From positions 1-64,000 of IMG/VR virus record IMGVR_UViG_3300045988_161245: a stretch of 64,000 nt of DNA; one strand, 5' to 3'. Positions 19,142 through 28,650 of the stretch are shown one piece after another (within the stretch, counting starts at the first letter, position 1; every line of letters begins with the position of its first letter). The DNA is from a virus. Both the position numbers and the translations under genes were made by a program. Below the pieces are notes generated by a model. That model did not search any database, was not told the origin of the DNA, and saw only the letters and a list, made by a program, of their open reading frames with translations.

Positions 19142-19517
19142 AGTTTTCCTCCAAATCCCATATACCAATATTTTCTTCTCTGTATTCTTTAAATTCCGTC
19201 CCAAACCGTCCATATACCTTACCATCATCTTCTTTATATCTAATAAACTCTGCATAATCAGTAAGCAGTTTTGGACAATTATTCACGACCCATTCTCGTG
19301 TAGCAGTAATACAATAATTTGAAGACATATCAATTAATTCTCTAACTACACATAATCTGCTTTTCTTTACCCAAGTCTCATCATCAAATTTGATTTGTAA
19401 ATCATTTTTCATCCATAATCTAAACGGTTCATCGTCTGGATAGAATATTCCAGGAATCCAATTATTTAGTTCAAAATATATAATCTTATCCATCTTATTC
19501 CTCAATACAACATTCAA
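19131..19517 (-). CDS. hypothetical protein (128 aa)
   Basis: ORF track; packed array. Confidence 0.6.
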   Translation of the reverse strand: MNVVLRNKMDKIIYFELNNWIPGIFYPDDEPFRLWMKNDLQIKFDDETWVKKSRLCVVRELIDMSSNYCITATREWVVNNCPKLLTDYAEFIRYKEDDGKVYGRFGTEFKEYREENIGIWDLEENYER

Positions 19518-19845
19518 TATCCGGAAACTCTTCCGATTCCCATTCTACTCCGCAAGTTTCACATTTAAAACTTAATGAATTCCACCATTTCTCTCCTTGA
19601 AAAATATGTTTATACCAAGGCTTTTGAAATCCTAATCTTCGATGGCGAATACCATAAAATTGTCTTATGCCGGATAATTTTTTATGTTCTTTTATCGCAT
19701 CTAGTTCATCTTTAACTGTACAAAGTCTATTCTCTCCACAGCATGGACACACACTATTTCTTTTTATAATTGTATCCATCATTATTTTATTTGGATCACA
19801 TTTATCTGGAAATTTAGTTATTCTCATCATCATCATCCTCTTCAT
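19495..19845 (-). CDS. hypothetical zinc-ribbon protein (start among a run of ATGs, uncertain)
   Basis: CPCCG...CETCG pairs; the 5' end overlaps the upstream gene. Confidence 0.55.
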   Translation of the reverse strand: MKRMMMMRITKFPDKCDPNKIMMDTIIKRNSVCPCCGENRLCTVKDELDAIKEHKKLSGIRQFYGIRHRRLGFQKPWYKHIFQGEKWWNSLSFKCETCGVEWESEEFPDIECCIEE

Positions 19846-20116
19846 TATCTAAACCAATTAGCCAACAGAATTGATTTAATCCACCAATGTAAGCATTAAC
19901 TGCATCACCGTTCTCATGAATCTCATCCAGATATCCCCTGGCGATCACTCCGGCGTTAAAATAATATTCCGGCGTATGTTCTTTACTTTGAATTCTGTTT
20001 TCCAACTCTTTTATATCAGCTGACAAATCAATATCCTTTCGACCATAAATCAGCTTATCAAAGCGTTGGCACATAATTTTATAATGTACATCTGGACAGC
20101 CCATTTTTACCTCCAT
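19814..20116 (-). CDS. hypothetical protein with acidic tail (100 aa)
   Basis: ORF track; C-terminal EEDDDDENN. Confidence 0.55.
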   Translation of the reverse strand: MEVKMGCPDVHYKIMCQRFDKLIYGRKDIDLSADIKELENRIQSKEHTPEYYFNAGVIARGYLDEIHENGDAVNAYIGGLNQFCWLIGLDNEEDDDDENN

Positions 20117-20173
20117 ATTTTACAATTTAATTATAGGTATATACGCTAACATAAAACATATCTTTTACTGTTC

Positions 20174-20920
20174 TCACTCCAACCATTTGTTCTCTAAATA
20201 GCAAAAACCATATATAGCAGCTCCTGTCAACATAATCCATAATACCCAAAACAACCACATTGGAAAATGTGTTGTAACATATTTAAAAGTTTCATCTAGA
20301 TCCATATTGTTATAATATTTAGTATTATTTATGGTTTTATCTTTAAGATTTGTGAATATAGTCCCTTTATTAACTGCAGGAACACCATAGTATTTAAATC
20401 TTACATGGTAACCACCACTCAATGTATCAATATAGTCTTTCCCTGGAAATGGAATTTTACTGCTATCAAAATCAATTCCACAAAAATTAATCGTTTTACA
20501 ACTTTTATCTTCTTCTCCGGCATAATCCCAGGTCCAATATGTTTCTGTTCTTGTATGCTTTTTCCCTTTTGAGTCAGTAGTCGTAACAGTTCGAGTATGC
20601 ATATTATAATGTTCTTCTACTTTTCTAACATACATGTATCCTCCACCAATTTCCGGATATGTAACTGAATCTACAGCTTTCAGCTCCCCATAAACAAATG
20701 CATTACCGACATTTGTATCCATTCCATATTGGAACAGATCTGTATCATTATCTATTTGAATTGCCTTGTTATATTTAATATCAGATTCCTGTTGGCTCTC
20801 TGACCATTTCGTGCTGATCAGAAAGCCAAACATAATCATTAAGGCTGCGATTACAATACTTACAAGAATTTCTCTTTTAGTAATCGTAAAGTTCCGAAAC
20901 TTTATGTTTTTCATTTTCAA
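20174..20920 (-). CDS. membrane protein with N- and C-terminal TM helices (248 aa)
   Basis: ILVSIVIAALMIMFGFLI and MWLFWVLWIMLTGAAIYGFCY hydrophobic segments; last gene of the LemA/vWA/PurA-like operon. Confidence 0.6.
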   Translation of the reverse strand: MKMKNIKFRNFTITKREILVSIVIAALMIMFGFLISTKWSESQQESDIKYNKAIQIDNDTDLFQYGMDTNVGNAFVYGELKAVDSVTYPEIGGGYMYVRKVEEHYNMHTRTVTTTDSKGKKHTRTETYWTWDYAGEEDKSCKTINFCGIDFDSSKIPFPGKDYIDTLSGGYHVRFKYYGVPAVNKGTIFTNLKDKTINNTKYYNNMDLDETFKYVTTHFPMWLFWVLWIMLTGAAIYGFCYLENKWLE

Positions 20921-20957
20921 TCCTCAATTTCTCTACAATTTTTTCATAATATTCAGG

Positions 20958-21221
20958 TCATTCCTTTTCAAATTCTTCAAATGGTTTATACTTACAATTC
21001 TTAAAAACTTGAATCGCATTTTTGTAATTTTCGTAGCCTTCTTGTGTGTGAGGAAATATGCTTGGACTCAAAGATCCAAATTCAAAATCTTTACATTTTT
21101 CACATATACAAGGTGAAATTATGTAAATTTTATGACAATCATTTTCTTCTATTACTGCATAATATTTACCACAACCAAGTGTCACATAAAAATGCCTATC
21201 ACATTTTTGTTTCTTTTTCAT
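20958..21221 (-). CDS. Cys-rich small protein (87 aa)
   Basis: ORF track; packed array. Confidence 0.55.
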   Translation of the reverse strand: MKKKQKCDRHFYVTLGCGKYYAVIEENDCHKIYIISPCICEKCKDFEFGSLSPSIFPHTQEGYENYKNAIQVFKNCKYKPFEEFEKE

Positions 21222-21224
21222 AAA

Positions 21225-21809
21225 TTAATCCTCTCCAAACAAATCCTGTGGTGCATCCTGAAGGTTGTCACCAAAGTCTAATAGTTTATAATCCTGTTTC
21301 TCGTATCCAAGAAAATCAAGAAACGTACTCTGTGGGAACGCACGAACATAACCATTATAAATTTTTACCTGTTTATTATAATTTTCTCTATAATTTGCGA
21401 TTAAATTTTCAGTTGTTGCCAACTCATTCATAAGCTGTTTATAATTCTCATTGGATTTTAATTCCGGATATGCCTCAGATACTGCCTTAATAGAAGTTTT
21501 GATTTCTGCAGCTTTATCGTCATCAGATGAACGACCGTCCACGATTGCCTTTAATGTATCATATTCATGTTTATCATAATTCTTTACGCAATCAACCAGG
21601 TTACCAAGTGAATCTACTCTTCGCTTTTCCTGAATATTTATGTCAGATTTTGCAGTTAACACCTGTTCTTCCATATTAATAGCTCTATTTTTATAGCTCT
21701 GAACTCCAAAGACAGCCATGAGAGCTACAGCAATAATAATTGCAATTGCGATTAATACCACTTTCCAACCGGTACCTCTACTTTTCATTTTTATCTCCTT
21801 TACCAACAT
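21225..21809 (-). CDS. lemA: LemA family membrane protein
   Basis: N-terminal TM helix, then QEKRRVDSLGNLVDCVKNY...AYPELKSNENYKQLMNEL..TENLIANYRENYN..V..YN...R.FP, typical of LemA. Confidence 0.8.
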   Translation of the reverse strand: MLVKEIKMKSRGTGWKVVLIAIAIIIAVALMAVFGVQSYKNRAINMEEQVLTAKSDINIQEKRRVDSLGNLVDCVKNYDKHEYDTLKAIVDGRSSDDDKAAEIKTSIKAVSEAYPELKSNENYKQLMNELATTENLIANYRENYNKQVKIYNGYVRAFPQSTFLDFLGYEKQDYKLLDFGDNLQDAPQDLFGED

Positions 21810-22063
21810 ATTTCATTTGTATATGTAGAATTTGTTTTCTTATTTAAACCAGCAAATTTATTTATTATTGTTTCTAATTCGCAGTTTTCATCAAATGATA
21901 ACAAATTCTGTGTTAATATTTCTACTAATAGCCTTAATACATACTTAGTATCATCCACACTACAAGAAAATAGTTCAGGATCTTCTACAGATAAAAACAA
22001 TCTTGCGTACTGATCGGATGATGCTAAATTATATAATTCTCTTTTTAACTTTTCTTTATCCAT
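21800..22063 (-). CDS. hypothetical protein (87 aa)
   Basis: ORF track; overlaps both neighbours (translational coupling). Confidence 0.55.
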   Translation of the reverse strand: MDKEKLKRELYNLASSDQYARLFLSVEDPELFSCSVDDTKYVLRLLVEILTQNLLSFDENCELETIINKFAGLNKKTNSTYTNEICW

Positions 22064-23162
22064 CTTTATACCTCAAAATATCATTGTGTGTTTCACCATC
22101 TGATTTATAAATATTCCAGCCTGAGAATAACTTCCCAAATTTATCATCATCTATTCTAAATTCGTTGCAATGCGTAATAGTAATAGATCTTTCACACTCA
22201 AAATCTCCTACATCTGCTATAACTCTCTGATAAAGTTTATTTAAATCTAGTTTTCCATATCTCAAAGTATCCTGATGATGGTTTGGAACATTTGTCTTAT
22301 CATACATTTCGGCATTAATTTCGTCTTTATTGCATTCTGTTGGAAACGGACCAGCACCATGTCTGGTTAAATATGTACGTGTTACATAACATACTTCTAT
22401 ATTTAATTCATCATTCCAATTTACTCTTTCAATAATTTCTTTTGGATTTTTCAGACCTGTGTTAGATGGGGTAAGATGTGGAAAGTATTTTAGATTGTTC
22501 TGATCGAGTAATAACCCTTGAGCGGCTTCAAAAATAATGTGATCAAATATATTTAGAAAGCTTTCATCCCTGGTTGTCTCAATATGGTCATTCATAAAAT
22601 CTAAGTCTTCAAGAAAATGTTCGTATATTCCTTGGTCGTTAAATAATTTTTTCCAACTATCAGATAACACAATTCCTTCTTTTTCAAACTTCTCAAGGTA
22701 ATAATCTTTTACCTTATCAAAATCGGTAATGTCACTTTCATACCTCTTAATGGTTTCAAAAATTCCTAACCCACAACTGCCATGCTTTTGTTTTCCACGA
22801 TTTTCTTCAACAATATGATTTGCCATCATATCGTAAGGTGTTGAAACCATACAGTCTGAATGAACATAAACAATAGGAACTACACCTTTATTTATCAGTT
22901 CTTTAAATTCTTGAACGAAAATAAGTGGATTTACAATGAATTCTTTTGGCAAATATGTAACAGCCCCATTAAAAGTTCCAGAACCAAAATGATGAAAGAC
23001 ATGTCTGATTCCGTCCGGTGTCATTACGGTATGTCCTCTTTGACTTCCACCATTAGAACACACTACAATACTATTAGGTTTCTGTGAAAAGTAATCAGTC
23101 ATTAAACCTTTTCCTTCATCTCCTGCATTTGCACCAATCACAATCTTAATGTCTTTCATCAT
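22056..23162 (-). CDS. short adenylosuccinate synthetase (PurA/PurZ) family enzyme, substrate uncertain
   Basis: GANAGDEGKG, NGGSQRGHT, HHFGSG, GSCGLGI, EAAQGLLLD and TRHGAGPFPTE match PurA blocks; 368 aa; the canonical GxTTGRxRR loop is not recognisable. Confidence 0.75.
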   Translation of the reverse strand: MMKDIKIVIGANAGDEGKGLMTDYFSQKPNSIVVCSNGGSQRGHTVMTPDGIRHVFHHFGSGTFNGAVTYLPKEFIVNPLIFVQEFKELINKGVVPIVYVHSDCMVSTPYDMMANHIVEENRGKQKHGSCGLGIFETIKRYESDITDFDKVKDYYLEKFEKEGIVLSDSWKKLFNDQGIYEHFLEDLDFMNDHIETTRDESFLNIFDHIIFEAAQGLLLDQNNLKYFPHLTPSNTGLKNPKEIIERVNWNDELNIEVCYVTRTYLTRHGAGPFPTECNKDEINAEMYDKTNVPNHHQDTLRYGKLDLNKLYQRVIADVGDFECERSITITHCNEFRIDDDKFGKLFSGWNIYKSDGETHNDILRYKDG

Positions 23163-23181
23163 CTCAATCTCCTATTTTATT

Positions 23182-24081
23182 TTACCAAACAATTTCTCCG
23201 TTTTCATTTGTAATTACCTGATCAATAGCTGATACAGGTGCTATATAACTTTCATCCTTTTCTGCTGCACCAACAATAATATTTACGATGGTTTCTGTAA
23301 TGTTATCAAGATTTGCCTTTTTAAAATGTTCCTCATCAAGAATTGATTTAAAGGATTTTTCAATATTTTCTTCATCATAATTACGACCATGATTTACGTG
23401 AATATGATAAATATCAAATTTCTTAGTGGTCTCTTCAAATAATTCTGGAGTCTCCACATCTTTTTCAAGATTATCACCGAGGGCATCTACTAAACCAGAG
23501 CGTCTACCATGCATCGGAAGATACGGGTTTATTCTCTCATCGCCAATAGTAATAATAATTCCTCGTTTACCACGATTCCAGCAATCAAGCTTAGTATGAT
23601 GAAGTCCAAAATACCAGGCAGCTGTATAAGATTCATACATATTTCCACCACCGCCAAACTCAAAGTAAATTTTATCAAGTTGCTCTGCGATACGGATATC
23701 AGATTCAAACTGAGATACCTGAATAGGATAATAATCACAGCTTAAATCTCCAATACCCATAATCATAAACTCAACGTCTTTTATATTTTCATACAATTTT
23801 GTCATAATGCTATTGAGCTTCTTAGCTACCTCTACGGCAGCTTGTCCCATTGATCCAGTTACATCCAGGGCTAAAATCACTGGTAATGTATTTGGGTGAT
23901 CATCAGAATCACAACATTCTCTAATAACATCTTTTGGATCAAGTGCAGGATCTAAATCTCTTGCCTTAAACATTTCTTGATTAGAAACACTTGAAGTAAC
24001 AAATCCTAACTTATCAGTTGTAAGTCCTTTAGATGTTGAATAACTTCTAAAACTATCTGTATCCCATGTTCCACATCCCAT
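23182..24081 (-). CDS. von Willebrand factor A (vWA) domain protein
   Basis: VILALDVTGSMG MIDAS motif, later GGGGN and IIITIGDE. Confidence 0.7.
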   Translation of the reverse strand: MGCGTWDTDSFRSYSTSKGLTTDKLGFVTSSVSNQEMFKARDLDPALDPKDVIRECCDSDDHPNTLPVILALDVTGSMGQAAVEVAKKLNSIMTKLYENIKDVEFMIMGIGDLSCDYYPIQVSQFESDIRIAEQLDKIYFEFGGGGNMYESYTAAWYFGLHHTKLDCWNRGKRGIIITIGDERINPYLPMHGRRSGLVDALGDNLEKDVETPELFEETTKKFDIYHIHVNHGRNYDEENIEKSFKSILDEEHFKKANLDNITETIVNIIVGAAEKDESYIAPVSAIDQVITNENGEIVW

Positions 24082-24083
24082 AA

Positions 24084-24689
24084 TTATTCTTCCTCCTCTG
24101 CATCTACATTATCATCTTCATCTGTGTTATCTACGGTATCAAAATCAAACATTCCATCAAACATATCACTCATATTTCCACCCATCATCATAAACGGAAG
24201 CATTGAGTTCATATTACTCGCCGTTCCAGTAGAACCATTTCCATTCATCATCTGAGATAGCATCATATATTTGAAAATATTGTTCATTCCGTTTTTTCCC
24301 TTAGTAATATTACTTCCAAGTAAAGAAACAATCTTTCCATAAAAATATGTATTTCCCATAAATACGTGTCGTTCTGGAACAATATTCTCTACAGTAGAAT
24401 CTTCATAATTGATTGCAGTAATCATATTCTTCTCTACTTTAATAACACATTTAGGCTTTCCATTTGCAAATATAATATCACCTGCACTAACTTTGTTTGT
24501 TGGAATAATAAAGAAGAAATCCTGTCCAATATCAAATGCAAAATTGTCACAATTTGTAAGTCTACCAGTCTTCACATTATAACTTTTATAACCATTAGAT
24601 GTTTTTACTGCAATACCGCCACTCATAGAAAGTCTGCACATTCCGTTACCTACTTTACCAAACATACCGTTTAAAAAATTGTTCATCAT
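24084..24689 (-). CDS. hypothetical protein with Gly/Met-rich region and acidic tail (201 aa)
   Basis: ORF track; 2 nt upstream of the vWA gene; C-terminal DNTDEDDNVDAEEEE. Confidence 0.6.
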   Translation of the reverse strand: MMNNFLNGMFGKVGNGMCRLSMSGGIAVKTSNGYKSYNVKTGRLTNCDNFAFDIGQDFFFIIPTNKVSAGDIIFANGKPKCVIKVEKNMITAINYEDSTVENIVPERHVFMGNTYFYGKIVSLLGSNITKGKNGMNNIFKYMMLSQMMNGNGSTGTASNMNSMLPFMMMGGNMSDMFDGMFDFDTVDNTDEDDNVDAEEEE

Positions 24690-24743
24690 AATTATCTTTT
24701 CTCCTTTTTTTATTTATATATTTTTTATAATGCTTTTCAGCTA

Positions 24744-25367
24744 TTATTTACTTCCAATTTCTTTTTCATATTCTTCTTTTAATTTCTGTAAATCGTTTTC
24801 TTTATTTTTTATATCTGATTCCAGTTTACGAATTTTACCTTCAAATGCTCTAATTCTGTTTTTACGCTCTTTTTCCGCTTTGAGTCGTTCTTGCTCTTCT
24901 CTATATTCCTTCGAAAATTCATCATTCATTGCATCAACATTTTCTTGAGTAATCTCTCCATTCCCACTAGAAAGTAAATCTTTCATATATGTCTCTGCTG
25001 TACTATATGCTAATTCAAGATTTCTTTCTTTAAGAAAAATGTAAAATCGTATAAAGCGCCCTTTGTCATAAGAAACAAAATTGTATAATCCAATATTTTT
25101 TACACAGCATCTACAATAGTCACACTCTGGAACATTGTCTGAGAAATCTTCTCTTTCATACTTATTAGTATTATTAGAAAATTTAAATGAAATACCATAA
25201 TGATAAACAAGTTCATATTTGCTATAATCAATATCACTTTTTAATCTTTCAAGTGGCTCGATTTCACACCCTTTTATTGCACTATATTTATATGCTTCGT
25301 CTAAATCTTCTGTATATCCTATTAATTCATGATAATCATAATCATAGTCAATAAGCCCATATAACAT
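24744..25367 (-). CDS. hypothetical protein with C-terminal coiled-coil-like K/E-rich region (207 aa)
   Basis: Start moved to the second ATG (MLYGLIDY...), which has GGAGG 8 nt upstream. Confidence 0.55.
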   Translation of the reverse strand: MLYGLIDYDYDYHELIGYTEDLDEAYKYSAIKGCEIEPLERLKSDIDYSKYELVYHYGISFKFSNNTNKYEREDFSDNVPECDYCRCCVKNIGLYNFVSYDKGRFIRFYIFLKERNLELAYSTAETYMKDLLSSGNGEITQENVDAMNDEFSKEYREEQERLKAEKERKNRIRAFEGKIRKLESDIKNKENDLQKLKEEYEKEIGSK

Positions 25368-25523
25368 TTTCTTGCCCTCCATTTAATAAGTAATAAAAGT
25401 TCCGTTTGGTATATAATTTTCTCCTTTTTATGAATTTTTCTCAAAATTCCATTTTCGCAATCCCTTTATTTATAAGGGATTCACGAGGGTCATTTTCCCA
25501 ATAAAACTGTTGTTTTATCGTTG

Positions 25524-25775
25524 TCACTTTCCAAACAATTTTTCAATAAAACTTTTTTCAAAAACTTTTACAACCGAAACGCCATAATTGGTTTTCTCGT
25601 TTAATTCTCTTACTGCGTCATTTAATTCGGAATAATCTTTTATACTAATTGTTACTTTTCGATGAAAATCTATACAACACTTTTCTTTTATTACACGAAT
25701 ATTATTCGCCGCTAAAATCCCATAAAACCAACGCTTATCATTTGATATATCTATATATTGTAATACTGCTTTCAT
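25524..25775 (-). CDS. hypothetical protein (83 aa)
   Basis: ORF track; packed array. Confidence 0.55.
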   Translation of the reverse strand: MKAVLQYIDISNDKRWFYGILAANNIRVIKEKCCIDFHRKVTISIKDYSELNDAVRELNEKTNYGVSVVKVFEKSFIEKLFGK

Positions 25776-25792
25776 ATATCTCTACCTCTAAG

Positions 25793-27121
25793 TCAAATAT
25801 CCACATCGTTATATCTATATCTAGTAATGAATAATGATGTATTTGTCATTTCAAGCTCTCTCATTTTGCAATCAATATATTCTAATTCTTCGTAATAATA
25901 ATCAATATCATGTTTTAATCTATAGGTAATATTAAATTTAAATTCTTTATATTCATCAAGTTGTTTAACATTACTACACCATATGTATTCACTTTTCCTA
26001 TTATATGTAATTCTTTTTTCTTCTTGAACATTAATTAAATTCTTATAAAAATGAATATCATTTAATGTAAACGATTCAAAACCATAATATTCATCATTAT
26101 CGTTATGCATTACAAACTCGTAATTCCAATAATTTTCTCTATAATAGTCAATATTATTAATAAATTCTTCATATGGAATATTCATTCCACTATGCATATC
26201 GATTCCTATTAATCTATTAATATGTTCAACCGTTTTTTCTTTATCTAATGTGAGGCACTTATATTTTGCAAGACCTAATACATGCTGTATATATTGATGA
26301 TTGTTAGTTTCTGCAATAAGACCATATCTGGAATGATAATTTCCGCAAATATATTCAACTTTTCCTAAATATGTTTCCCTACATACGCCTCCGCCTTCTT
26401 CTTTATATTTTCTATTTTCATCATCATAATATGTTACTTTATGTTGTACTGTATTATTTTCACACCAAAATTCTATATGGCATAATGTATTACCTTTTGG
26501 ATCTAATGCTGTTGAAGAAAATTTTACATTTGAATCACAATCTAAATATTGATAAAACATTATCATTTCTTCATATGAATATCTTCGTTCATCACGAATT
26601 TTTTTCATTACAAAATTATCTTTTCTAATATCTTCTAAATATCTTATTTCTCTTTTAAGACTTGTTACTTCATTTTGTAATAATTTTATTTCATTTTCAG
26701 CAACCTCTTTACCACCATTAATGATTCTCACAGCACGTAAATACTCGTCATCGATTTCCTCCATTATGTCAAAACGATTATATTCTTCAATAAATTTAGC
26801 ACTATATTTAGACAAAAGCTCTTTATTGTATTTAATCCATTTAGGCTCAACAAAATCTAATCCACCCCATTCAGATACTTTTGCTTTATTATATCTAGGT
26901 TTATACCGTCTAATTAACTCACTCTCAACTACATCAGACATAATTCTATTTGCTAACTCACAATAATAAATATCTGAGTTATTTATCTCATTCCATCCTT
27001 CTTCTGGAATATTGTCACCTGGTCGTCCATGTCGATTTAGTCTTGAAGTAAGATCTGTATCGTTTTTACCAATATAAATAATTTCATCTTTATATACATA
27101 TTTATAAACATAATTGCCCAT
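25793..27121 (-). CDS. GIY-YIG family homing endonuclease-like protein
   Basis: N-terminal YVYKYVYKDEIIYIGK...R..RH...E...RYKPRYN; start set at ATG 27121 with AGGAG 9 nt upstream. Confidence 0.7.
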   Translation of the reverse strand: MGNYVYKYVYKDEIIYIGKNDTDLTSRLNRHGRPGDNIPEEGWNEINNSDIYYCELANRIMSDVVESELIRRYKPRYNKAKVSEWGGLDFVEPKWIKYNKELLSKYSAKFIEEYNRFDIMEEIDDEYLRAVRIINGGKEVAENEIKLLQNEVTSLKREIRYLEDIRKDNFVMKKIRDERRYSYEEMIMFYQYLDCDSNVKFSSTALDPKGNTLCHIEFWCENNTVQHKVTYYDDENRKYKEEGGGVCRETYLGKVEYICGNYHSRYGLIAETNNHQYIQHVLGLAKYKCLTLDKEKTVEHINRLIGIDMHSGMNIPYEEFINNIDYYRENYWNYEFVMHNDNDEYYGFESFTLNDIHFYKNLINVQEEKRITYNRKSEYIWCSNVKQLDEYKEFKFNITYRLKHDIDYYYEELEYIDCKMRELEMTNTSLFITRYRYNDVDI

Positions 27122-27270: not shown

Positions 27271-28650
27271 CTAAGATATTTTCTGTTTTAAATATTCATC
27301 ATAAAACATCCATTGGCATTTAATATTTGTATTTGGAATTTTACCTGCACTATGACGTCCGTTTTTATTTCTACAACATTCATAAATAGATTTGTATTGT
27401 TTTATTCCACACCATTTTGCAGCTTCAACACCAGAGTTAAATAAATTCCCATTAGTTATACATATAATTTTTCTATCAGATACACTTTTATCATATATAA
27501 TCACCTTTCCATCTGCTCTTTTCCATCTAAACCCACCTGCCAGCCAATTATTTTTTATTGCTGTCGATATATTATGAATATTTAATAGTTTTTCAGTTTC
27601 ATTAATCCCACAGAATGTATTTAAATATTTTCCATCAGGGGTATATTGATTTATGTATATACTATTATTTTTTATAGCATTTATTTTTAACTTTTCTATT
27701 TTTTCACAATATATTTTTTCTTTAAAATCTATATTTATTTCTTTATTTAAAGAATGTTTTTTAGAATAGTTATAATATTCTTGTCTCGAAATTTGTATAA
27801 ATTTAAATCCTGCATGTATTTTTTTATCATCTATATATTTACGAATAGAAAAATGCGAAATATTTAATTCATTACTGCATTCTAATATACTTGCGTATAC
27901 ATTGATAATTTGTTCTTCTTTTAATTGTGCAACTGGATAACCATTATCACTTACACCAAATCCTCCGCTAGATACGTTATATCCGCATTCCGGATTTGTA
28001 GAATTATACACATCAATATAATATTTTTCTTTTTCAATCGCTTCCCTATAAGTTAAATTATCTTCTAATATCTTATGTTCAAAATTATTCCATCCATATT
28101 TTTTTATTGCGCTATAAAAGTATTTTTGTCTATTATATCCTTTTCCATTTTGGAATCTTTTACAAAAATTTTGATGTGTTATTCCTATATAAACTTTTTT
28201 GCTTGGAGAAATATGAATATATACTTTATAATCTTTTATCGACGAATTTAATCTTATTGAATTATCTTGTTTATATTTTGTTTTATTCCAACAGCCACAT
28301 GATTTTACATGACCACTTTTTAAATAACTAATTTTAGTTCTTTTAATTTTTTTACAGTCACATTCACACACCCATTCTTTTGTTTCAAAATCATAATATA
28401 AAGCAGTTAGCTTTCCAAATTTTTGACCAGATATATCTTCCCAATTCGGATGCAATTGTTTTATATTTCTGTACATTGCTGCCTCTCTAATTTGTTTATG
28501 TGAAGAATTTGGAAATATTTTCTCTAATTCACTCCAATTTCTAATTGGATAATATTTATATAATGCATCGATTTGTTCTTTACTAAATTTATTTGATTCT
28601 CTCAACTTTAAAAAAGGAAGTAATTGCAATTTTACCAGGCCCGACTCCAC
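27271..28650 (-). CDS. GIY-YIG homing endonuclease with N-terminal Cys-rich and C-terminal NUMOD-like DNA-binding modules
   Basis: YKVYIHISPSKKVYIGIT...RF..G...YFYSAIKKYGWNNFEHKILE...EKEKYYIDVYNS...GYNVSSGG; N-terminal GQKFGKLTAL...CECDC...SCGCW. Confidence 0.8.
   Translation of the reverse strand: MESGLVKLQLLPFLKLRESNKFSKEQIDALYKYYPIRNWSELEKIFPNSSHKQIREAAMYRNIKQLHPNWEDISGQKFGKLTALYYDFETKEWVCECDCKKIKRTKISYLKSGHVKSCGCWNKTKYKQDNSIRLNSSIKDYKVYIHISPSKKVYIGITHQNFCKRFQNGKGYNRQKYFYSAIKKYGWNNFEHKILEDNLTYREAIEKEKYYIDVYNSTNPECGYNVSSGGFGVSDNGYPVAQLKEEQIINVYASILECSNELNISHFSIRKYIDDKKIHAGFKFIQISRQEYYNYSKKHSLNKEINIDFKEKIYCEKIEKLKINAIKNNSIYINQYTPDGKYLNTFCGINETEKLLNIHNISTAIKNNWLAGGFRWKRADGKVIIYDKSVSDRKIICITNGNLFNSGVEAAKWCGIKQYKSIYECCRNKNGRHSAGKIPNTNIKCQWMFYDEYLKQKIS

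What the first reader, a model, noticed from the sequence alone, without database searches (positions are those of the whole stretch)
20174..24689. Short PurA/PurZ-family enzyme with an unrecognisable aspartate loop, embedded in a vWA / LemA / membrane-protein operon
Seen in the sequence: ORF 22056-23162 (368 aa) keeps the PurA fingerprints GDEGKG, GGSQRGHT, EAAQGLLLD and TRHGAGPFPTE. It is about 60 aa shorter than bacterial PurA, a size typical of archaeal PurA and of the phage PurZ enzymes that make 2-aminoadenine (Z) DNA. Where PurA carries the basic loop GxTTGRxRR that binds L-aspartate, I can only read NVPNHHQDTLRYG, so the amine substrate may differ. The P-loop Asp is retained. My unverified recollection is that PurZ has Ser at that position, which would argue against a textbook PurZ. 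No DatZ/MazZ/DpoZ-like genes are visible in the window.

The gene sits in a seven-gene, translationally coupled unit: 24084-24689 (Gly/Met-rich with an acidic tail), vWA (DVTGSMG), the PurA-like gene, an 87-aa ORF, LemA, a Cys-rich 87-aa ORF, and a two-TM 248-aa protein.

Inference: this is not a nucleotide-metabolism context. Possible roles are synthesis of a modified purine nucleotide, rescue of IMP/dIMP produced by deaminase-type defences, or production of a signalling or decoy nucleotide.
Basis: partly seen in the sequence, partly recalled or inferred. Interest (0 to 1): 0.7.

Follow-up and report, generated by a model that had tools for sequence, protein, structure and literature searches.

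The report
Third-clade PurA-like enzyme with vWA partner
This phage gene resembles the enzyme that starts AMP synthesis, but it belongs to an uncharacterised third branch of that family with a rebuilt active site, is always paired with a vWA protein, and also occurs as a cassette in many bacteria.

Summary
ORF 22056-23162 has the adenylosuccinate-synthetase fold but is neither PurA nor PurZ. It scores far below the curated cut-offs of both and sits in its own clade (200/200 bootstraps).

Across 144 non-redundant members:
- The phosphoryl-transfer residues are kept (P-loop, Asp13, His41, Gln224).
- All aspartate-binding arginines and Arg143 are lost.
- New near-invariant residues appear: Gln38, Cys129, His273, Asn298, Gln301.

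The seven-gene "operon" is two units.
- The real unit is a trio: g201 (Met/Gly-rich), a MIDAS-type vWA protein and the PurA-like enzyme. The vWA gene lies upstream of the enzyme in 89/89 phage loci and in 77/80 genome loci.
- LemA, the Cys-rich ORF and TM248 form a separate inserted cassette.

In other lineages a J-domain pseudokinase replaces g201. In bacterial chromosomes the cassette often lies beside an NrtR-type (ADP-ribose-sensing) regulator gene.

Function is unresolved. My best inference is that the enzyme uses NTP to activate a 6-oxopurine compound and joins it to an amine other than free aspartate, with help from its partner proteins. The role is probably linked to NAD/ADP-ribose stress or counter-defence. 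I found no paper describing this system.

The parts
24084..24689 (-). g201, first gene of the conserved trio. It has a strongly conserved N-terminal domain of about 125 aa, a Met/Gly/Asn-rich low-complexity region (about 19% Met in the last 70 aa) and an acidic tail (...MFDFD...EEEE). No known family. Probable adaptor or chaperone-like partner.
   Evidence: ORF. No Pfam, PHROG or PADLOC hit. Found upstream of the vWA gene in 83/89 phage loci and in 36 of the 45 close genome loci L092-L136. Remote homologues lie in the same position in Vibrio phage Va1 and Rhizobium phage Y65 (hhalign probability 93.8%, E 1.7e-7). Conservation and composition. 4,331 homologues, none named.
23182..24081 (-). vWA-fold protein with a MIDAS-type motif (D73-x-T75-x-S77) and family motifs QFESDIRIAEQL, GGGGNxxESY and TIGDE. 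Its extreme N-terminus, M-G-x-G-x-[W/Y/F], is conserved. Obligate partner of the PurA-like enzyme.
   Evidence: phrog_2971, E 4e-75. AF2 model plus Foldseek hits to vWA and integrin I-like domains. Alignment A5. 1,482 representatives at 50% identity, mostly stand-alone proteins of about 280-330 aa. 122/126 full-length representatives start with MG. Upstream of the PurA-like gene in 89/89 phage loci, and directly followed by the PurA-like gene in 77/80 genome loci. Start codon preceded by GAGGAGG.
22056..23162 (-). PurA-like enzyme, a member of a third clade of the adenylosuccinate-synthetase superfamily. It keeps the P-loop (GDEGKG) with Asp13, Lys16, His41, Gln224 and Thr239. It has lost Arg131, Arg143 and Arg303-305. 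It has gained family-invariant Gln38, Cys129, His273, Asn298 and Gln301. The guanine-specificity Asp333 is Asn here.
   Evidence: Pfam PF00709 partial match. NCBIfam: 105.7 bits against a PurA cut-off of 402, and 36.5 against a PurZ cut-off of 300. Alignment. Residue census of 144 members. Tree with 200/200 support. Foldseek.
21800..22063 (-). 87-aa ORF overlapping the end of the PurA-like gene by 8 nt. It is a lineage-specific appendage and not part of the conserved module.
   Evidence: ORF. Homologues found only in L010, L011 and L061. No family hits.
21225..21809 (-). LemA-family membrane protein. First gene of a separate two-gene cassette (LemA + TM248) that is inserted here.
   Evidence: PF04011, E 1e-29; phrog_1383. 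Found in 18/89 phage loci, always with TM248. It lies upstream of the trio (starting 3.7-6.9 kb upstream of the PurA-like start) in all but L061, which shares the window's arrangement. Absent from L010, L011 and L012.
20958..21221 (-). Cys-rich 87-aa ORF between LemA and TM248. Orphan.
   Evidence: ORF. A homologue was found only in L061, whose PurA-like gene is 96% identical to the window's. No family hits.
20174..20920 (-). Protein of 248 aa with two transmembrane segments (phrog_3886). Constant partner of the LemA gene. Function unknown.
   Evidence: phrog_3886, E 4e-87. Co-occurs with LemA in the same 18 loci.

Best explanation
Window 22056-24689 encodes a conserved three-protein module: g201, a MIDAS-type vWA protein, and a PurA-fold enzyme that is the catalytic subunit.

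Shown:
- The enzyme belongs to a third, monophyletic clade of the adenylosuccinate-synthetase superfamily, distinct from PurA and from PurZ/PurZ0.
- It keeps the residues that transfer the gamma-phosphate of an NTP to the 6-oxo group of a purine: the P-loop, Asp13, Lys16, His41 and Gln224.
- Every arginine that binds L-aspartate is gone (Arg131, Arg303, Arg304, Arg305).
- The contacts to the nucleotide's 5'-phosphate and ribose have changed to new near-invariant residues (Asn38 to Gln, Thr129 to Cys, Val273 to His), and Arg143 is lost. PurA, PurZ and PurZ0 all keep these contacts.

Inferred:
- The enzyme still performs phosphoryl activation followed by amine displacement.
- It probably acts on a 6-oxopurine compound that is not plain IMP, and it uses an amine that is not free L-aspartate. 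Candidates are ammonia, another small amine, or a protein amino group.
- The vWA partner (a Mg2+-dependent peptide binder) and an exchangeable adaptor deliver or control the second substrate. The adaptor is the Met/Gly-rich g201 here and a J-domain pseudokinase in other lineages.
- Bacterial copies of the cassette often sit beside an NrtR-type ADP-ribose-sensing repressor, and three phage or phage-like lineages place it near NAD or ADP-ribose genes. The physiological setting is therefore probably NAD/ADP-ribose stress. In phages that would mean counter-defence or metabolic takeover.

LemA, the Cys-rich ORF and TM248 (20174-21809) are an unrelated cassette inserted downstream.
For: Clade identity:
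- Neighbour-joining tree of 30 taxa with 200 bootstraps: this family 200/200, PurZ+PurZ0 200/200, PurA plus the megaphage copy 180/200.
- NCBIfam scores are far below the curated cut-offs for PurA and PurZ.
- A PurZ query and the PurA-like query recover separate phage sets that share only one megaphage.

Active site (144 non-redundant members):
- Kept: Asp13 141/141, His41 143, Gln224 144, Thr239 144.
- Lost: Arg303 deleted in 144; Arg131 is hydrophobic; Arg305 is Leu/Ile/Phe; Arg143 is not conserved.
- New: Gln38 142, Cys129 139, His273 144, Asn298 143, Gln301 144.
- PurA, PurZ and PurZ0 all keep Asn38, Thr129, Arg143 and Val273.

Partnership:
- The vWA gene lies upstream of the enzyme in 89/89 phage loci and is followed by it in 77/80 genome loci, the three exceptions being at contig ends.
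- In the GenBank phage collection, 220 records have the vWA gene and 236 match the enzyme. The excess sampled at the weak end of the ranking consists of host PurA fragments, bacterial contigs and a megaphage PurA.
- vWA fold and MIDAS motif.

Adaptors:
- g201 in 83/89 phage loci, plus remote homologues in Va1 and Y65.
- J-domain-like pseudokinase in Tonenili, L087, L090 and 25 of the 35 distant genome loci. The HPD motif is at least 90% conserved and the kinase motifs are degenerate.

NAD/ADP-ribose link:
- A Nudix-family neighbour occurs in 18/35 distant genome loci. Of 7 tested, 6 have NUDIX plus the NrtR winged-helix domain and one is an NMNAT-Nudix fusion.
- NADAR domain protein next to the module in Va1.
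- Nampt-like and NMNAT/Nudix genes 4-5 kb upstream in Rhizobium phage Y65.
- Literature precedent for Nudix-HTH regulators as ADP-ribose sensors and vWA domains as peptide-binding chaperones in conflict systems (PMC9503650).

Cellular occurrence: the flanks of the distant loci are housekeeping genes.

Separate LemA cassette.
Against: - There is no biochemical or genetic evidence. Both substrates are unknown.
- One arginine (Arg306) is conserved in the shortened loop and might still bind aspartate.
- The AF2 models are only moderate (pLDDT 67 and 71) and the active-site loops are low-confidence, so no geometry could be checked.
- No complex could be modelled.
- The window itself has no NAD-related gene, and the NrtR link comes only from distant bacterial copies.
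- NrtR-family regulators can respond to other ligands. The same Pfam hits include the AraR-type winged helix.
- The J-domain assignment rests on weak Pfam scores below the curated threshold (E 1e-4 to 0.04) plus the conserved HPD motif.
- No hit in PADLOC, and no paper supports a counter-defence role.
Confidence: 0.4

Rival explanations
1. It is an ordinary auxiliary metabolic gene: a working adenylosuccinate synthetase (IMP + GTP + L-aspartate) that boosts AMP supply during infection. On this reading the divergent loop still binds aspartate, perhaps through the retained Arg306 or with help from the Mg2+ site of the vWA protein.
For: The fold and all phosphoryl-transfer residues are kept. Arg306 is conserved in 142/144 members and Asn295 in 144/144. 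Public records annotate these genes as adenylosuccinate synthetase.
Against: - Arg131, Arg303, Arg304 and Arg305 are all lost, as is Arg143, and PROSITE-type signature 2 (GI[GR]PxYxxKxxR) is missing.
- According to PMC8342488, Arg303 contacts both the aspartate and the O2' of IMP.
- Scores are 94-106 bits against equivalog cut-offs of 395-402.
- The family forms a separate clade with 200/200 support, while a true phage PurA (megaphage LR756501) groups with cellular PurA.
- An obligate vWA partner is unexplained for a housekeeping-type enzyme.
Confidence: 0.12
2. It is a PurZ or PurZ0-type enzyme that makes the precursor of 2-aminoadenine (Z) for a Z-genome. This is what the PHROG and RefSeq label '2-aminooxy adenylosuccinate synthetase' implies.
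For: Best PHROG is phrog_1211, which carries the PurZ label. The protein is short like PurZ.
Against: - Asp13 is kept in 141/141 members, whereas all 147 phage PurZ sequences have Ser.
- NCBIfam PurZ model: 36.5 bits against a cut-off of 300.
- PurZ+PurZ0 form a separate clade with 200/200 support.
- tblastn of the window protein finds E. coli purA but not phiVC8 purZ.
- No YfbR/DatZ, MazG, DUF550, dUTPase or DNA polymerase A family appears among 71 other window ORFs.
Confidence: 0.02
3. The protein no longer works as a ligase. It is an NTPase switch or assembly factor, as many SIMIBI-class P-loop proteins are. It would work with the vWA protein and a chaperone-type adaptor to fold, load with metal or remodel a target protein. 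The new Cys129/His273 pair would form a metal or regulatory site, and the purine site would be allosteric.
For: - Both alternative adaptors look chaperone-like: a Met/Gly-rich tail, or a J-domain with a conserved HPD motif.
- vWA domains are described as Mg2+-dependent peptide-binding chaperones in conflict systems (PMC9503650).
- vWA plus NTPase pairs are a known design (own knowledge: MoxR-vWA systems and the Mg and Co chelatases).
- New invariant Cys and His residues.
Against: The residues specific to 6-oxopurine activation are invariant (Asp13 as base, His41, Gln224), as is the phosphate ligand Thr239. That is not expected for a pure switch. No metal-binding motif was tested, and the active-site geometry could not be checked.
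Confidence: 0.15
4. The module is a defence or exclusion system rather than a counter-defence. When an NrtR-type sensor or the vWA/adaptor pair detects infection, the enzyme depletes GTP or IMP or makes a toxic purine analogue. Temperate phages such as this one would carry it to exclude competitors.
For: - It is a self-contained cassette found in variable chromosomal contexts across phyla.
- It has a repressor-type neighbour predicted to sense ADP-ribose.
- The window comes from a temperate phage, with an integrase and a LexA-like repressor.
- The kinase-like partner in Tonenili resembles kinases of defence systems, though only weakly.
Against: - No PADLOC match for any cassette protein.
- The flanks are housekeeping genes rather than defence islands.
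- The module is conserved in more than 200 Mycobacterium myoviruses (Bixzunavirus) and in large Rhizobium and Vibrio phages. By my own knowledge these are strictly lytic, which I did not test here. A host-protective role fits such phages poorly.
Confidence: 0.12
5. One reading: all seven genes (20174-24689) form one functional operon that couples the enzyme to LemA and membrane proteins.
For: The genes are contiguous, on the same strand, overlapping or nearly so, and no terminator-like site was found in 19500-26000. They are probably co-transcribed in this phage.
Against: - LemA and TM248 are absent from 71/89 related loci. Where present they lie elsewhere, upstream of the trio.
- The Cys-rich ORF was found in 1 locus and the 87-aa ORF in 3.
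- L010 joins the 87-aa ORF directly to the homologue of window 19814-20116, which marks 20174-21809 as an insertion.
- No LemA or TM248 match lies within 5 kb of the PurA-like gene in Va1, Y65 or Tonenili.
Confidence: 0.03

Closest known systems
PurA, adenylosuccinate synthetase (EC 6.3.4.4; Pfam PF00709, TIGR00184)
   Same: - Same fold: Foldseek E 7e-12 to Bacillus anthracis PurA.
- Same P-loop GDEGKG with catalytic Asp13, and the same Lys16, His41, Gln224, Thr239 and Asn295.
- The chemistry is probably the same type: NTP-dependent phosphorylation of a purine 6-oxo group followed by displacement by an amine.
   Different: - Separate clade with 200/200 support.
- Only profile positions 1-306 of 416 match.
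- Lacks Arg131, Arg143 and Arg303-305, and lacks signature 2.
- Asn38 is Gln, Thr129 is Cys, Val273 is His, Thr301 is Gln.
- Asp333 is Asn in 105/144 members.
- Lacks the C-terminal insert of bacterial PurA.
- Always encoded next to a vWA protein.
PurZ / PurZ0 (succino-amino-deoxyadenylate synthase of Z-genome phages; NF038379)
   Same: A phage-borne, short member of the same superfamily. The PHROG and RefSeq labels place this protein there.
   Different: - PurZ and PurZ0 have Ser instead of Asp13.
- They keep Asn38, Thr129, Arg143 and Val273, and phiVC8 PurZ keeps a recognisable Thr/Arg-rich aspartate loop (TTVTKKVRR).
- They use aspartate.
- They travel with DatZ/MazZ/DpoZ or DutZ/DmtZ.
- They occur in a different set of phages.

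None of this holds here.
ARG-centred conflict systems with Nudix-HTH (NrtR-like) or WYL regulators and vWA chaperones, as predicted by Iyer, Burroughs, Anantharaman and Aravind 2022 (PMC9503650, section 3.8)
   Same: An NrtR-type regulator predicted to sense ADP-ribose, combined with a stand-alone vWA 'peptide-binding chaperone' and an enzymatic effector, in a compact cassette.
   Different: The effector in those systems is an ADP-ribosylglycohydrolase with phosphatases. The paper mentions no PurA-like enzyme, J-domain pseudokinase or Met/Gly-rich protein. The window's phage copy has no NrtR gene.
NAD+ reconstitution pathways of phages (NARP1, NARP2, NARP3)
   Same: Phage accessory modules built from repurposed nucleotide-metabolism enzymes with altered substrate specificity. 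This module lies near NAD-salvage genes in Rhizobium phage Y65 and in locus L148.
   Different: The enzymes differ: an ADPR-recycling pathway (NARP1), a nicotinamide-to-NMN-to-NAD+ pathway (NARP2), and PnuC plus NadR (NARP3; PMC13464706). None uses a PurA-fold enzyme or a vWA protein. There is no evidence that this module makes NAD+.
vWA plus NTPase machines (MoxR-vWA systems; Mg and Co chelatases BchI/BchD and CobS/CobT). This comparison rests on my own knowledge.
   Same: A MIDAS-type vWA protein encoded next to, and presumably working with, a P-loop NTPase.
   Different: The NTPase in those machines is an AAA+ protein, not a PurA-fold enzyme. The vWA protein here is a distinct family with no Pfam hit.

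Membership tests
PurA (adenylosuccinate synthetase) | Reaches the curated whole-protein score of the equivalog models | tested here: not met
   NF002223: 105.7 bits against a cut-off of 402. TIGR00184: 94.4 against 395.55. The Pfam family-level model PF00709 is passed (127.7 against 27), but only over profile positions 1-306 of 416.
PurA (adenylosuccinate synthetase) | P-loop GDEGKG with catalytic Asp13, plus His41 and Gln224 | tested here: met
   Asp13 141/141, His41 143/144, Gln224 144/144. Window sequence.
PurA (adenylosuccinate synthetase) | L-aspartate site: Thr300-Thr301-Gly-Arg303-x-Arg305, plus Arg131 | tested here: not met
   Arg303 is deleted in 144/144 members. Arg304 is Thr/Ser, Arg305 is Leu/Ile/Phe, Thr301 is Gln in 144/144, and Arg131 is hydrophobic.
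PurA (adenylosuccinate synthetase) | IMP 5'-phosphate ligands Asn38, Thr129, Thr239 and Arg143 (from the other subunit), and signature 2, GI[GR]PxYxxKxxR | tested here: not met
   Only Thr239 is kept. Asn38 is Gln (142 members), Thr129 is Cys (139), Arg143 is not conserved, and the window reads GIFETIKRYESD. PurA, PurZ and PurZ0 all keep these four residues.
PurA (adenylosuccinate synthetase) | Guanine specificity motif (T)KLD with Asp333 | tested here: not met
   The window has THCN. Across the family, position 333 is Asn in 105, Asp in 36 and Lys in 3; position 331 is His in 123 and Cys in 18.
PurA (adenylosuccinate synthetase) | Groups with cellular PurA in a phylogeny | tested here: not met
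   The family is monophyletic in 200/200 bootstraps and separate from PurA.
PurA (adenylosuccinate synthetase) | Catalyses IMP + GTP + L-aspartate to adenylosuccinate | not testable with these tools
   Needs an enzyme assay or purA complementation.
PurZ / PurZ0 | Ser (rarely Gly) in place of Asp13 | tested here: not met
   Asp in the window protein and in 141/141 members. Ser in phiVC8, Acinetobacter phage 53, Wayne and Archimedes, and in all 147 phage PurZ sequences per PMC12884076.
PurZ / PurZ0 | Reaches the curated score of NF038379 | tested here: not met
   36.5 bits against a cut-off of 300.
PurZ / PurZ0 | Genomic company of DatZ/MazZ (or DUF550)/DpoZ, or of DutZ/DmtZ | tested here: not met
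   Among 71 other window ORFs of at least 90 aa, no HD/YfbR-like, MazG, DUF550, dUTPase or DNA polymerase A family was found at E <= 1e-4. Only the 64-kb window was examined.
PurZ / PurZ0 | Groups with the PurZ clade | tested here: not met
   PurZ+PurZ0 form their own clade with 200/200 support. The phage sets recovered by the two queries share only one megaphage.
vWA domain (partner protein 23182-24081) | vWA (Rossmann-like alpha/beta) fold | tested here: met
   The AF2 model (pLDDT 67, pTM 0.70) gives 19 PDB matches at E <= 1e-3, all vWA, integrin I-like or VWF-A domains. There is no Pfam hit.
vWA domain (partner protein 23182-24081) | MIDAS motif DxSxS plus downstream Thr and Asp ligands | tested here: inconclusive
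   D73-V-T75-G-S77 is present and conserved (D73 and S77 invariant in the diverse alignment A5). GGGGNxxES and TIGDE could supply the other ligands, but the model was too weak to check the geometry.
LemA (21225-21809) | Passes the Pfam PF04011 gathering score | tested here: met
   103.6 bits against 26.2, E 1e-29.
Known anti-phage defence systems (PADLOC-DB v2) | Any protein of the module matches a catalogued system | tested here: not met
   No relevant hits for the window proteins or for the bacterial cassette proteins of L150 and L161.

The most novel reading that the evidence does not exclude
The enzyme does not use a free amino acid at all. It activates a 6-oxopurine nucleotide and joins it to a protein amino group. 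The most attractive candidate is the free N-terminal glycine of its own vWA partner: M-G-x-G-x-[W/Y/F] is conserved in 122/126 diverse family members, and residues 1-6 are low-confidence in the model, consistent with a flexible tail. The product would be a covalent N6-(protein)-adenylate, a kind of protein-nucleotide conjugate not described before. The J-domain or Met/Gly-rich adaptor would recruit chaperones or targets, and in bacteria the whole system would be switched on by ADP-ribose through NrtR.
Probability: 0.1. Interest if true: 0.92.

Novelty: new variant of a known kind. Interest (0 to 1): 0.68.

Why it matters
1. **Annotation.** More than 200 GenBank phage records match this family. 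PMC12884076 counts 481 phage PF00709 homologues, of which only 147 are PurZ. Family members are labelled "adenylosuccinate synthetase" or, in RefSeq and PHROGs, "2-aminooxy adenylosuccinate synthetase", which means PurZ. Both labels are probably wrong for this clade, and the PurZ label falsely predicts Z-genomes.

2. **Enzymology.** The clade shows a new, strongly selected active-site solution in a textbook enzyme fold (Gln38, Cys129, His273, Asn298, Gln301, with no aspartate-binding arginines). That points to new purine chemistry.

3. **System.** The strict pairing with a vWA protein, and with a chaperone-type adaptor, defines a compact cassette that no paper in the searched library describes. 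It is found in large phages of Firmicutes, Actinobacteria and Proteobacteria and in bacterial chromosomes of several phyla. In bacteria it often sits next to a gene for an NrtR-type regulator, a family known to sense ADP-ribose. It may therefore be a missing piece of the NAD/ADP-ribose conflict between phages and hosts.

4. **Tractability.** Mycobacterium smegmatis cluster C phages carry the module and are genetically tractable (my own knowledge).

Tried and rejected
- **Plain PurA or PurZ:** rejected on curated scores, residues and phylogeny.
- **Seven-gene operon:** rejected as a conserved unit.
- **Sequence search of the vWA profile against the PDB:** nothing useful.
- **PADLOC:** no match for the window proteins or the bacterial cassette.
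- **g201 against the J-pseudokinase family:** no relationship (hhalign probability 0.5%).
- **J-kinase homologue in the window:** none.
- **NARP3:** considered as an identity for the module, but it is PnuC + NadR.
- **Literature searches** on PurA-like/phage, adenylosuccinate/vWA/phage, anti-defence, NrtR/vWA/NADAR, and vWA/J domain/pseudokinase found no description of the module. A preprint mentioning adenylosuccinate synthetase in modified-base operons linked to PUA-like domains concerns a different context.
- **Listeria, Staphylococcus and Salmonella "phage" hits without a vWA gene:** the ones sampled are host PurA fragments or bacterial contigs.
- **Promoter and terminator scan:** uninformative. 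There were no terminators, and promoter-like hits were below the shuffle expectation.
- **AF2 models:** too weak in the active-site loops to judge geometry.
- **First tree attempt:** timed out and was redone with a faster distance method.
- **Fusion proteins that might reveal partners:** none obvious among the top 150 vWA representatives.

Full report
**1. Observation**

The genes are tightly packed. There is a 2-nt gap between g201 and the vWA gene, a 19-nt gap between the vWA gene and the PurA-like gene, an 8-nt overlap of the PurA-like gene with the 87-aa ORF, and a 10-nt overlap of that ORF with LemA. The vWA and PurA-like starts are each preceded by a strong Shine-Dalgarno sequence. No terminator-like site was found in 19500-26000, and promoter-like hits were below the shuffle expectation.

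The window has about 31% G+C, and 106 of its 115 non-overlapping ORFs of at least 70 aa are on one strand. A Pfam census of 71 other ORFs shows an integrase, a LexA-like repressor, several DNA methylases, two TnpB/IS605 elements and an RNA-repair set (Rnl1-type ligase, Thg1, a PNK-like kinase and a phosphoesterase). There are no nucleotide-pool genes of the Z-genome type and no NAD-salvage genes. This is an accessory region of a large temperate phage. Two named homologues of the vWA protein come from Lachnospiraceae (Anaerobutyricum, Mediterraneibacter), and related contigs are 90-215 kb long.

**2. What the PurA-like protein is**

- Pfam PF00709 matches, but only over profile positions 1-306 of 416.
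- The best PHROG is phrog_1211, which carries the PurZ label.
- Against the PDB, the best sequence and fold matches are bacterial PurA. PurZ, PurZ0 and archaeal PurA score lower.
- NCBIfam's curated models reject both assignments: 105.7 bits against a PurA cut-off of 402, and 36.5 bits against a PurZ cut-off of 300.

I collected 144 non-redundant family members from phage and genome loci and aligned them to E. coli PurA.

- Kept: Asp13 (141/141), Lys16, His41 (143), Gln224 (144), Thr239 (144), Asn295 (144).
- Lost: Arg131 (hydrophobic), Arg143 (not conserved), Arg303 (deleted in all), Arg304 (Thr/Ser), Arg305 (Leu/Ile/Phe).
- New and near-invariant: Gln38 (142), Cys129 (139), His273 (144), Asn298 (143), Gln301 (144).
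- The guanine-specificity Asp333 is Asn in 105 members and Asp in 36.

This is a remodelled site under purifying selection, not decay.

A neighbour-joining tree (30 taxa, 387 columns, 200 bootstraps) gives three clean groups: this family (200/200), PurZ+PurZ0 (200/200), and PurA plus a megaphage PurA (180/200). The same analysis shows that Asn38, Thr129, Arg143 and Val273 are shared by PurA, PurZ and PurZ0 and are changed only in this family. By established knowledge of PurA structures, these residues contact the 5'-phosphate and ribose of the nucleotide. So both the aspartate site and the nucleotide-tail site have been rebuilt.

PurZ has Ser at position 13, and PMC12884076 reports Ser in all 147 phage PurZ sequences. 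That paper counts 481 phage PF00709 homologues and uses the non-PurZ, non-PurA ones only as an outgroup, without characterising them.

**3. The real unit**

tblastn of the seven window proteins against 89 related phage loci shows the following.

- The vWA gene lies upstream of the enzyme gene, on the same strand, in 89/89 loci. In six of them it sits 0.8-1 kb further upstream than usual.
- g201 is present in 83/89.
- LemA and TM248 are present in only 18/89, always together. They lie upstream of the trio (starting 3.7-6.9 kb upstream of the PurA-like start) in all but L061, which shares the window's arrangement.
- The 87-aa ORF is present in 3 loci and the Cys-rich ORF in 1.
- In L010 (85% identical enzyme), the 87-aa ORF is followed directly by the homologue of window gene 19814-20116. 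So 20174-21809 is an insertion.

In the GenBank phage collection, 220 records match the vWA protein and 236 match the enzyme. The same groups appear in both sets: 201 Mycobacterium cluster C phages, 10 Rhizobium phages and 6 Vibrio phages. The extra enzyme hits I sampled at the weak end of the ranking are host PurA fragments, bacterial contigs or a true megaphage PurA. A PurZ query recovers a different set of 201 phages.

**4. The partners**

*The vWA protein.* It has no Pfam hit, but its AF2 model (pLDDT 67, pTM 0.70) matches vWA and integrin I-like domains. It carries a conserved D-x-T-x-S MIDAS-type motif and strong family motifs. The family is large: 1,482 representatives at 50% identity, and most of the 150 listed are stand-alone proteins of about 280-330 aa. 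Its extreme N-terminus is remarkably conserved. 122 of 126 full-length representatives begin with Met-Gly, with consensus M-G-x-G-x-[W/Y/F].

*g201.* It has a near-invariant N-terminal domain of about 125 aa, a tail with 19-24% Met, and an acidic or F-D-D/N end. Remote homologues occupy the same position in Vibrio phage Va1 (an unannotated ORF) and Rhizobium phage Y65 (hhalign probability 93.8%).

*The alternative adaptor.* In Mycobacterium phage Tonenili and in loci L087 and L090, the gene in front of the vWA gene encodes a different protein of about 340 aa. The three copies are homologous to one another. It has a J-domain-like start (HPD at least 90% conserved; Pfam DnaJ is weak) and a kinase-like core whose catalytic motifs are degenerate in most members.

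So there are two variants of one module:
- Variant A: g201 + vWA + enzyme. This is the window's version.
- Variant B: J-pseudokinase + vWA + enzyme.

**5. The module outside phages**

A scan of one genome per GTDB species with the vWA profile gave at least 587 relatives. In 77 of the 80 loci kept, the PurA-like gene directly follows the vWA gene, and the three exceptions are at contig ends. The 45 closer loci are mostly variant A and are probably phage or prophage contigs.

The 35 distant loci come from Firmicutes, Alpha- and Gammaproteobacteria, Acidobacteria, cyanobacteria and others. Most of them (25) are variant B. Their flanks are ordinary housekeeping genes: GerA, pyruvate kinase, RNase R, EPSP synthase, SmpB, penicillin-binding proteins and FeoB. 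I counted 157 different families with no recurring context. One locus lies in a 3.3-Mb chromosome. The cassette is therefore also cellular and behaves like an island.

A fourth gene recurs in 18 of the 35 distant loci, usually upstream of the J-pseudokinase gene and often divergent from it.
- Six of the seven copies tested have a NUDIX domain plus the NrtR winged-helix domain. NCBIfam's nearest model is the ADP-ribose-responsive repressor.
- The seventh is an NMN adenylyltransferase-Nudix fusion.

Other NAD/ADP-ribose links:
- Va1 has a NADAR domain protein just upstream of its module (E 1e-48).
- Rhizobium phage Y65 has Nampt-like and NMNAT/Nudix genes 4-5 kb upstream.

PMC9503650 predicts that Nudix-HTH regulators sense ADP-ribose in conflict systems, and it describes vWA domains there as Mg2+-dependent peptide-binding chaperones. 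It mentions no PurA-like enzyme. No cassette protein matches PADLOC.

**6. Mechanism: shown and inferred**

Shown:
- The fold, the retained phosphoryl-transfer residues, the lost aspartate and phosphate ligands, and the new invariant residues.
- The strict gene linkage to the vWA protein and the two exchangeable adaptors.
- The occurrence in cellular genomes and the NrtR-type neighbour.

Inferred:
- The enzyme still phosphorylates a purine 6-oxo group with an NTP and lets an amine displace the phosphate.
- The purine compound is probably not plain IMP, and the amine is not free L-aspartate.
- The vWA protein and the adaptor present or gate the second substrate. The J-domain and the Met/Gly-rich tail both hint at a link to Hsp70-type chaperones.
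- The setting is NAD/ADP-ribose stress, which for a phage would mean counter-defence or takeover.

I put 0.4 on this package. The structural and evolutionary part is close to certain, and the functional part is weak.

Rivals:
- A working PurA-type auxiliary gene: 0.12
- An NTPase switch or assembly factor: 0.15
- A defence or exclusion system: 0.12
- PurZ: 0.02
- The seven-gene operon: 0.03

The most novel reading that the evidence does not exclude is that a protein amine is the nucleophile, most attractively the conserved N-terminal glycine of the vWA partner. That would give a covalent protein-adenylate (about 0.1).

**7. Novelty**

"PurA-like" genes of cluster C mycobacteriophages have long been annotated. 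But I found no paper that describes the loss of the aspartate site, the remodelled nucleotide site, the obligate vWA partner, the adaptors or the bacterial cassette. I rate it a new variant of a known kind, an adenylosuccinate-synthetase-superfamily enzyme with new specificity inside a new three-protein module. It could turn out to be categorically new.

A practical consequence: the label "2-aminooxy adenylosuccinate synthetase" on these genes in RefSeq and PHROGs is misleading.

Noticed in passing
L014, L015, L036, L063 (vWA start about -1934/-1935 relative to the PurA-like start, against about -896 normally; -2544/-2554 is the g201 start), L058 (-1684), and L116 (genome locus): In several related loci about 0.8-1 kb of extra DNA separates the vWA gene from the PurA-like gene (in L116 only about 0.24 kb). 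This may be a mobile insertion such as a homing endonuclease.
   Followed up: no
Cluster C mycobacteriophages such as Nappy, Shaqnato and Cane17 (hits H84-H99): In a subset of these phages the vWA match covers only residues 1-174, and the gap to the PurA-like gene is about 1.5 kb. The vWA gene may be split or interrupted, for example by an intein or inserted gene.
   Followed up: no
L030:6069-6983: One gut-phage locus has a vWA gene whose first 55 or so residues are replaced by unrelated sequence, so there is no MGxGxW start. It also lacks g201. This could be a natural test case for the role of the N-terminus.
   Followed up: no
L001:8384-9892 (Vibrio phage Va1): A Ro60-like protein (TROVE domain, E 2e-17, plus weak sub-threshold matches to the Ro60 vWA domain) lies 2.3 kb downstream of the module. 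From memory, cluster C mycobacteriophages also encode a Ro homologue.
   Followed up: partly
L090:8234-10116: A DUF7192 protein and an AAA_5 (MoxR/CobS-like) ATPase lie directly downstream of the PurA-like gene in this variant-B viral contig. AAA_5 ATPases often partner with vWA proteins.
   Followed up: partly
L002:3655-3972 (Rhizobium phage Y65 gp017): A small HIRAN-domain protein (E 3e-7) sits between the g201-like gene and the vWA gene.
   Followed up: partly
L137:7213-9480: A fusion of a HemN-like radical-SAM domain with NUDIX and the NrtR winged helix lies about 0.9 kb downstream of the PurA-like gene, with one 298-aa ORF in between.
   Followed up: partly
L152, L162, L167 (Alphaproteobacteria-type loci): In these loci the vWA and PurA-like genes are preceded by SGNH/GDSL-like hydrolase genes (weak Pfam GDSL matches for the two L167 copies tested; two in tandem in L162 and L167, one homologue seen in L152) and a two-component system, instead of a J-pseudokinase. 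This may be a third variant of the cassette.
   Followed up: partly
L177 (uncultured megaphage LR756501.1, 735 kb): This megaphage carries a fully canonical PurA with all key residues intact, and it groups with cellular PurA. It is a true PurA auxiliary gene and contrasts with the family studied here.
   Followed up: yes
window:25793-27163 and 27271-28650 (minus strand): Two ORFs of about 457 aa just upstream of the unit contain GIY-YIG-like motifs by eye (for example ...IIYIGKNDTDLTSRLNRH and ...KVYIGITHQNFCKRFQNG). They may be homing endonucleases. No GIY-YIG family appeared in the bulk Pfam scan.
   Followed up: no
window, whole 64 kb: The window holds two TnpB/IS605-type elements (OrfB_IS605 plus the Cas12f1-like TNB domain), four or five DNA methyltransferases, and an RNA-repair set (T4 Rnl1-type ligase, Thg1, AAA_33/KTI12 kinase-like protein, calcineurin-like phosphoesterase). 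The bulk scan gives only family counts, so their positions were not mapped. GC skew is strongly negative throughout, and 106 of 115 non-overlapping ORFs of at least 70 aa are on the minus strand.
   Followed up: partly
RefSeq and PHROG annotation of relatives: RefSeq records and phrog_1211 label this non-PurZ clade '2-aminooxy adenylosuccinate synthetase'. The g201-like ORF of Va1 (L001:3252-3965) is unannotated in GenBank.
   Followed up: yes
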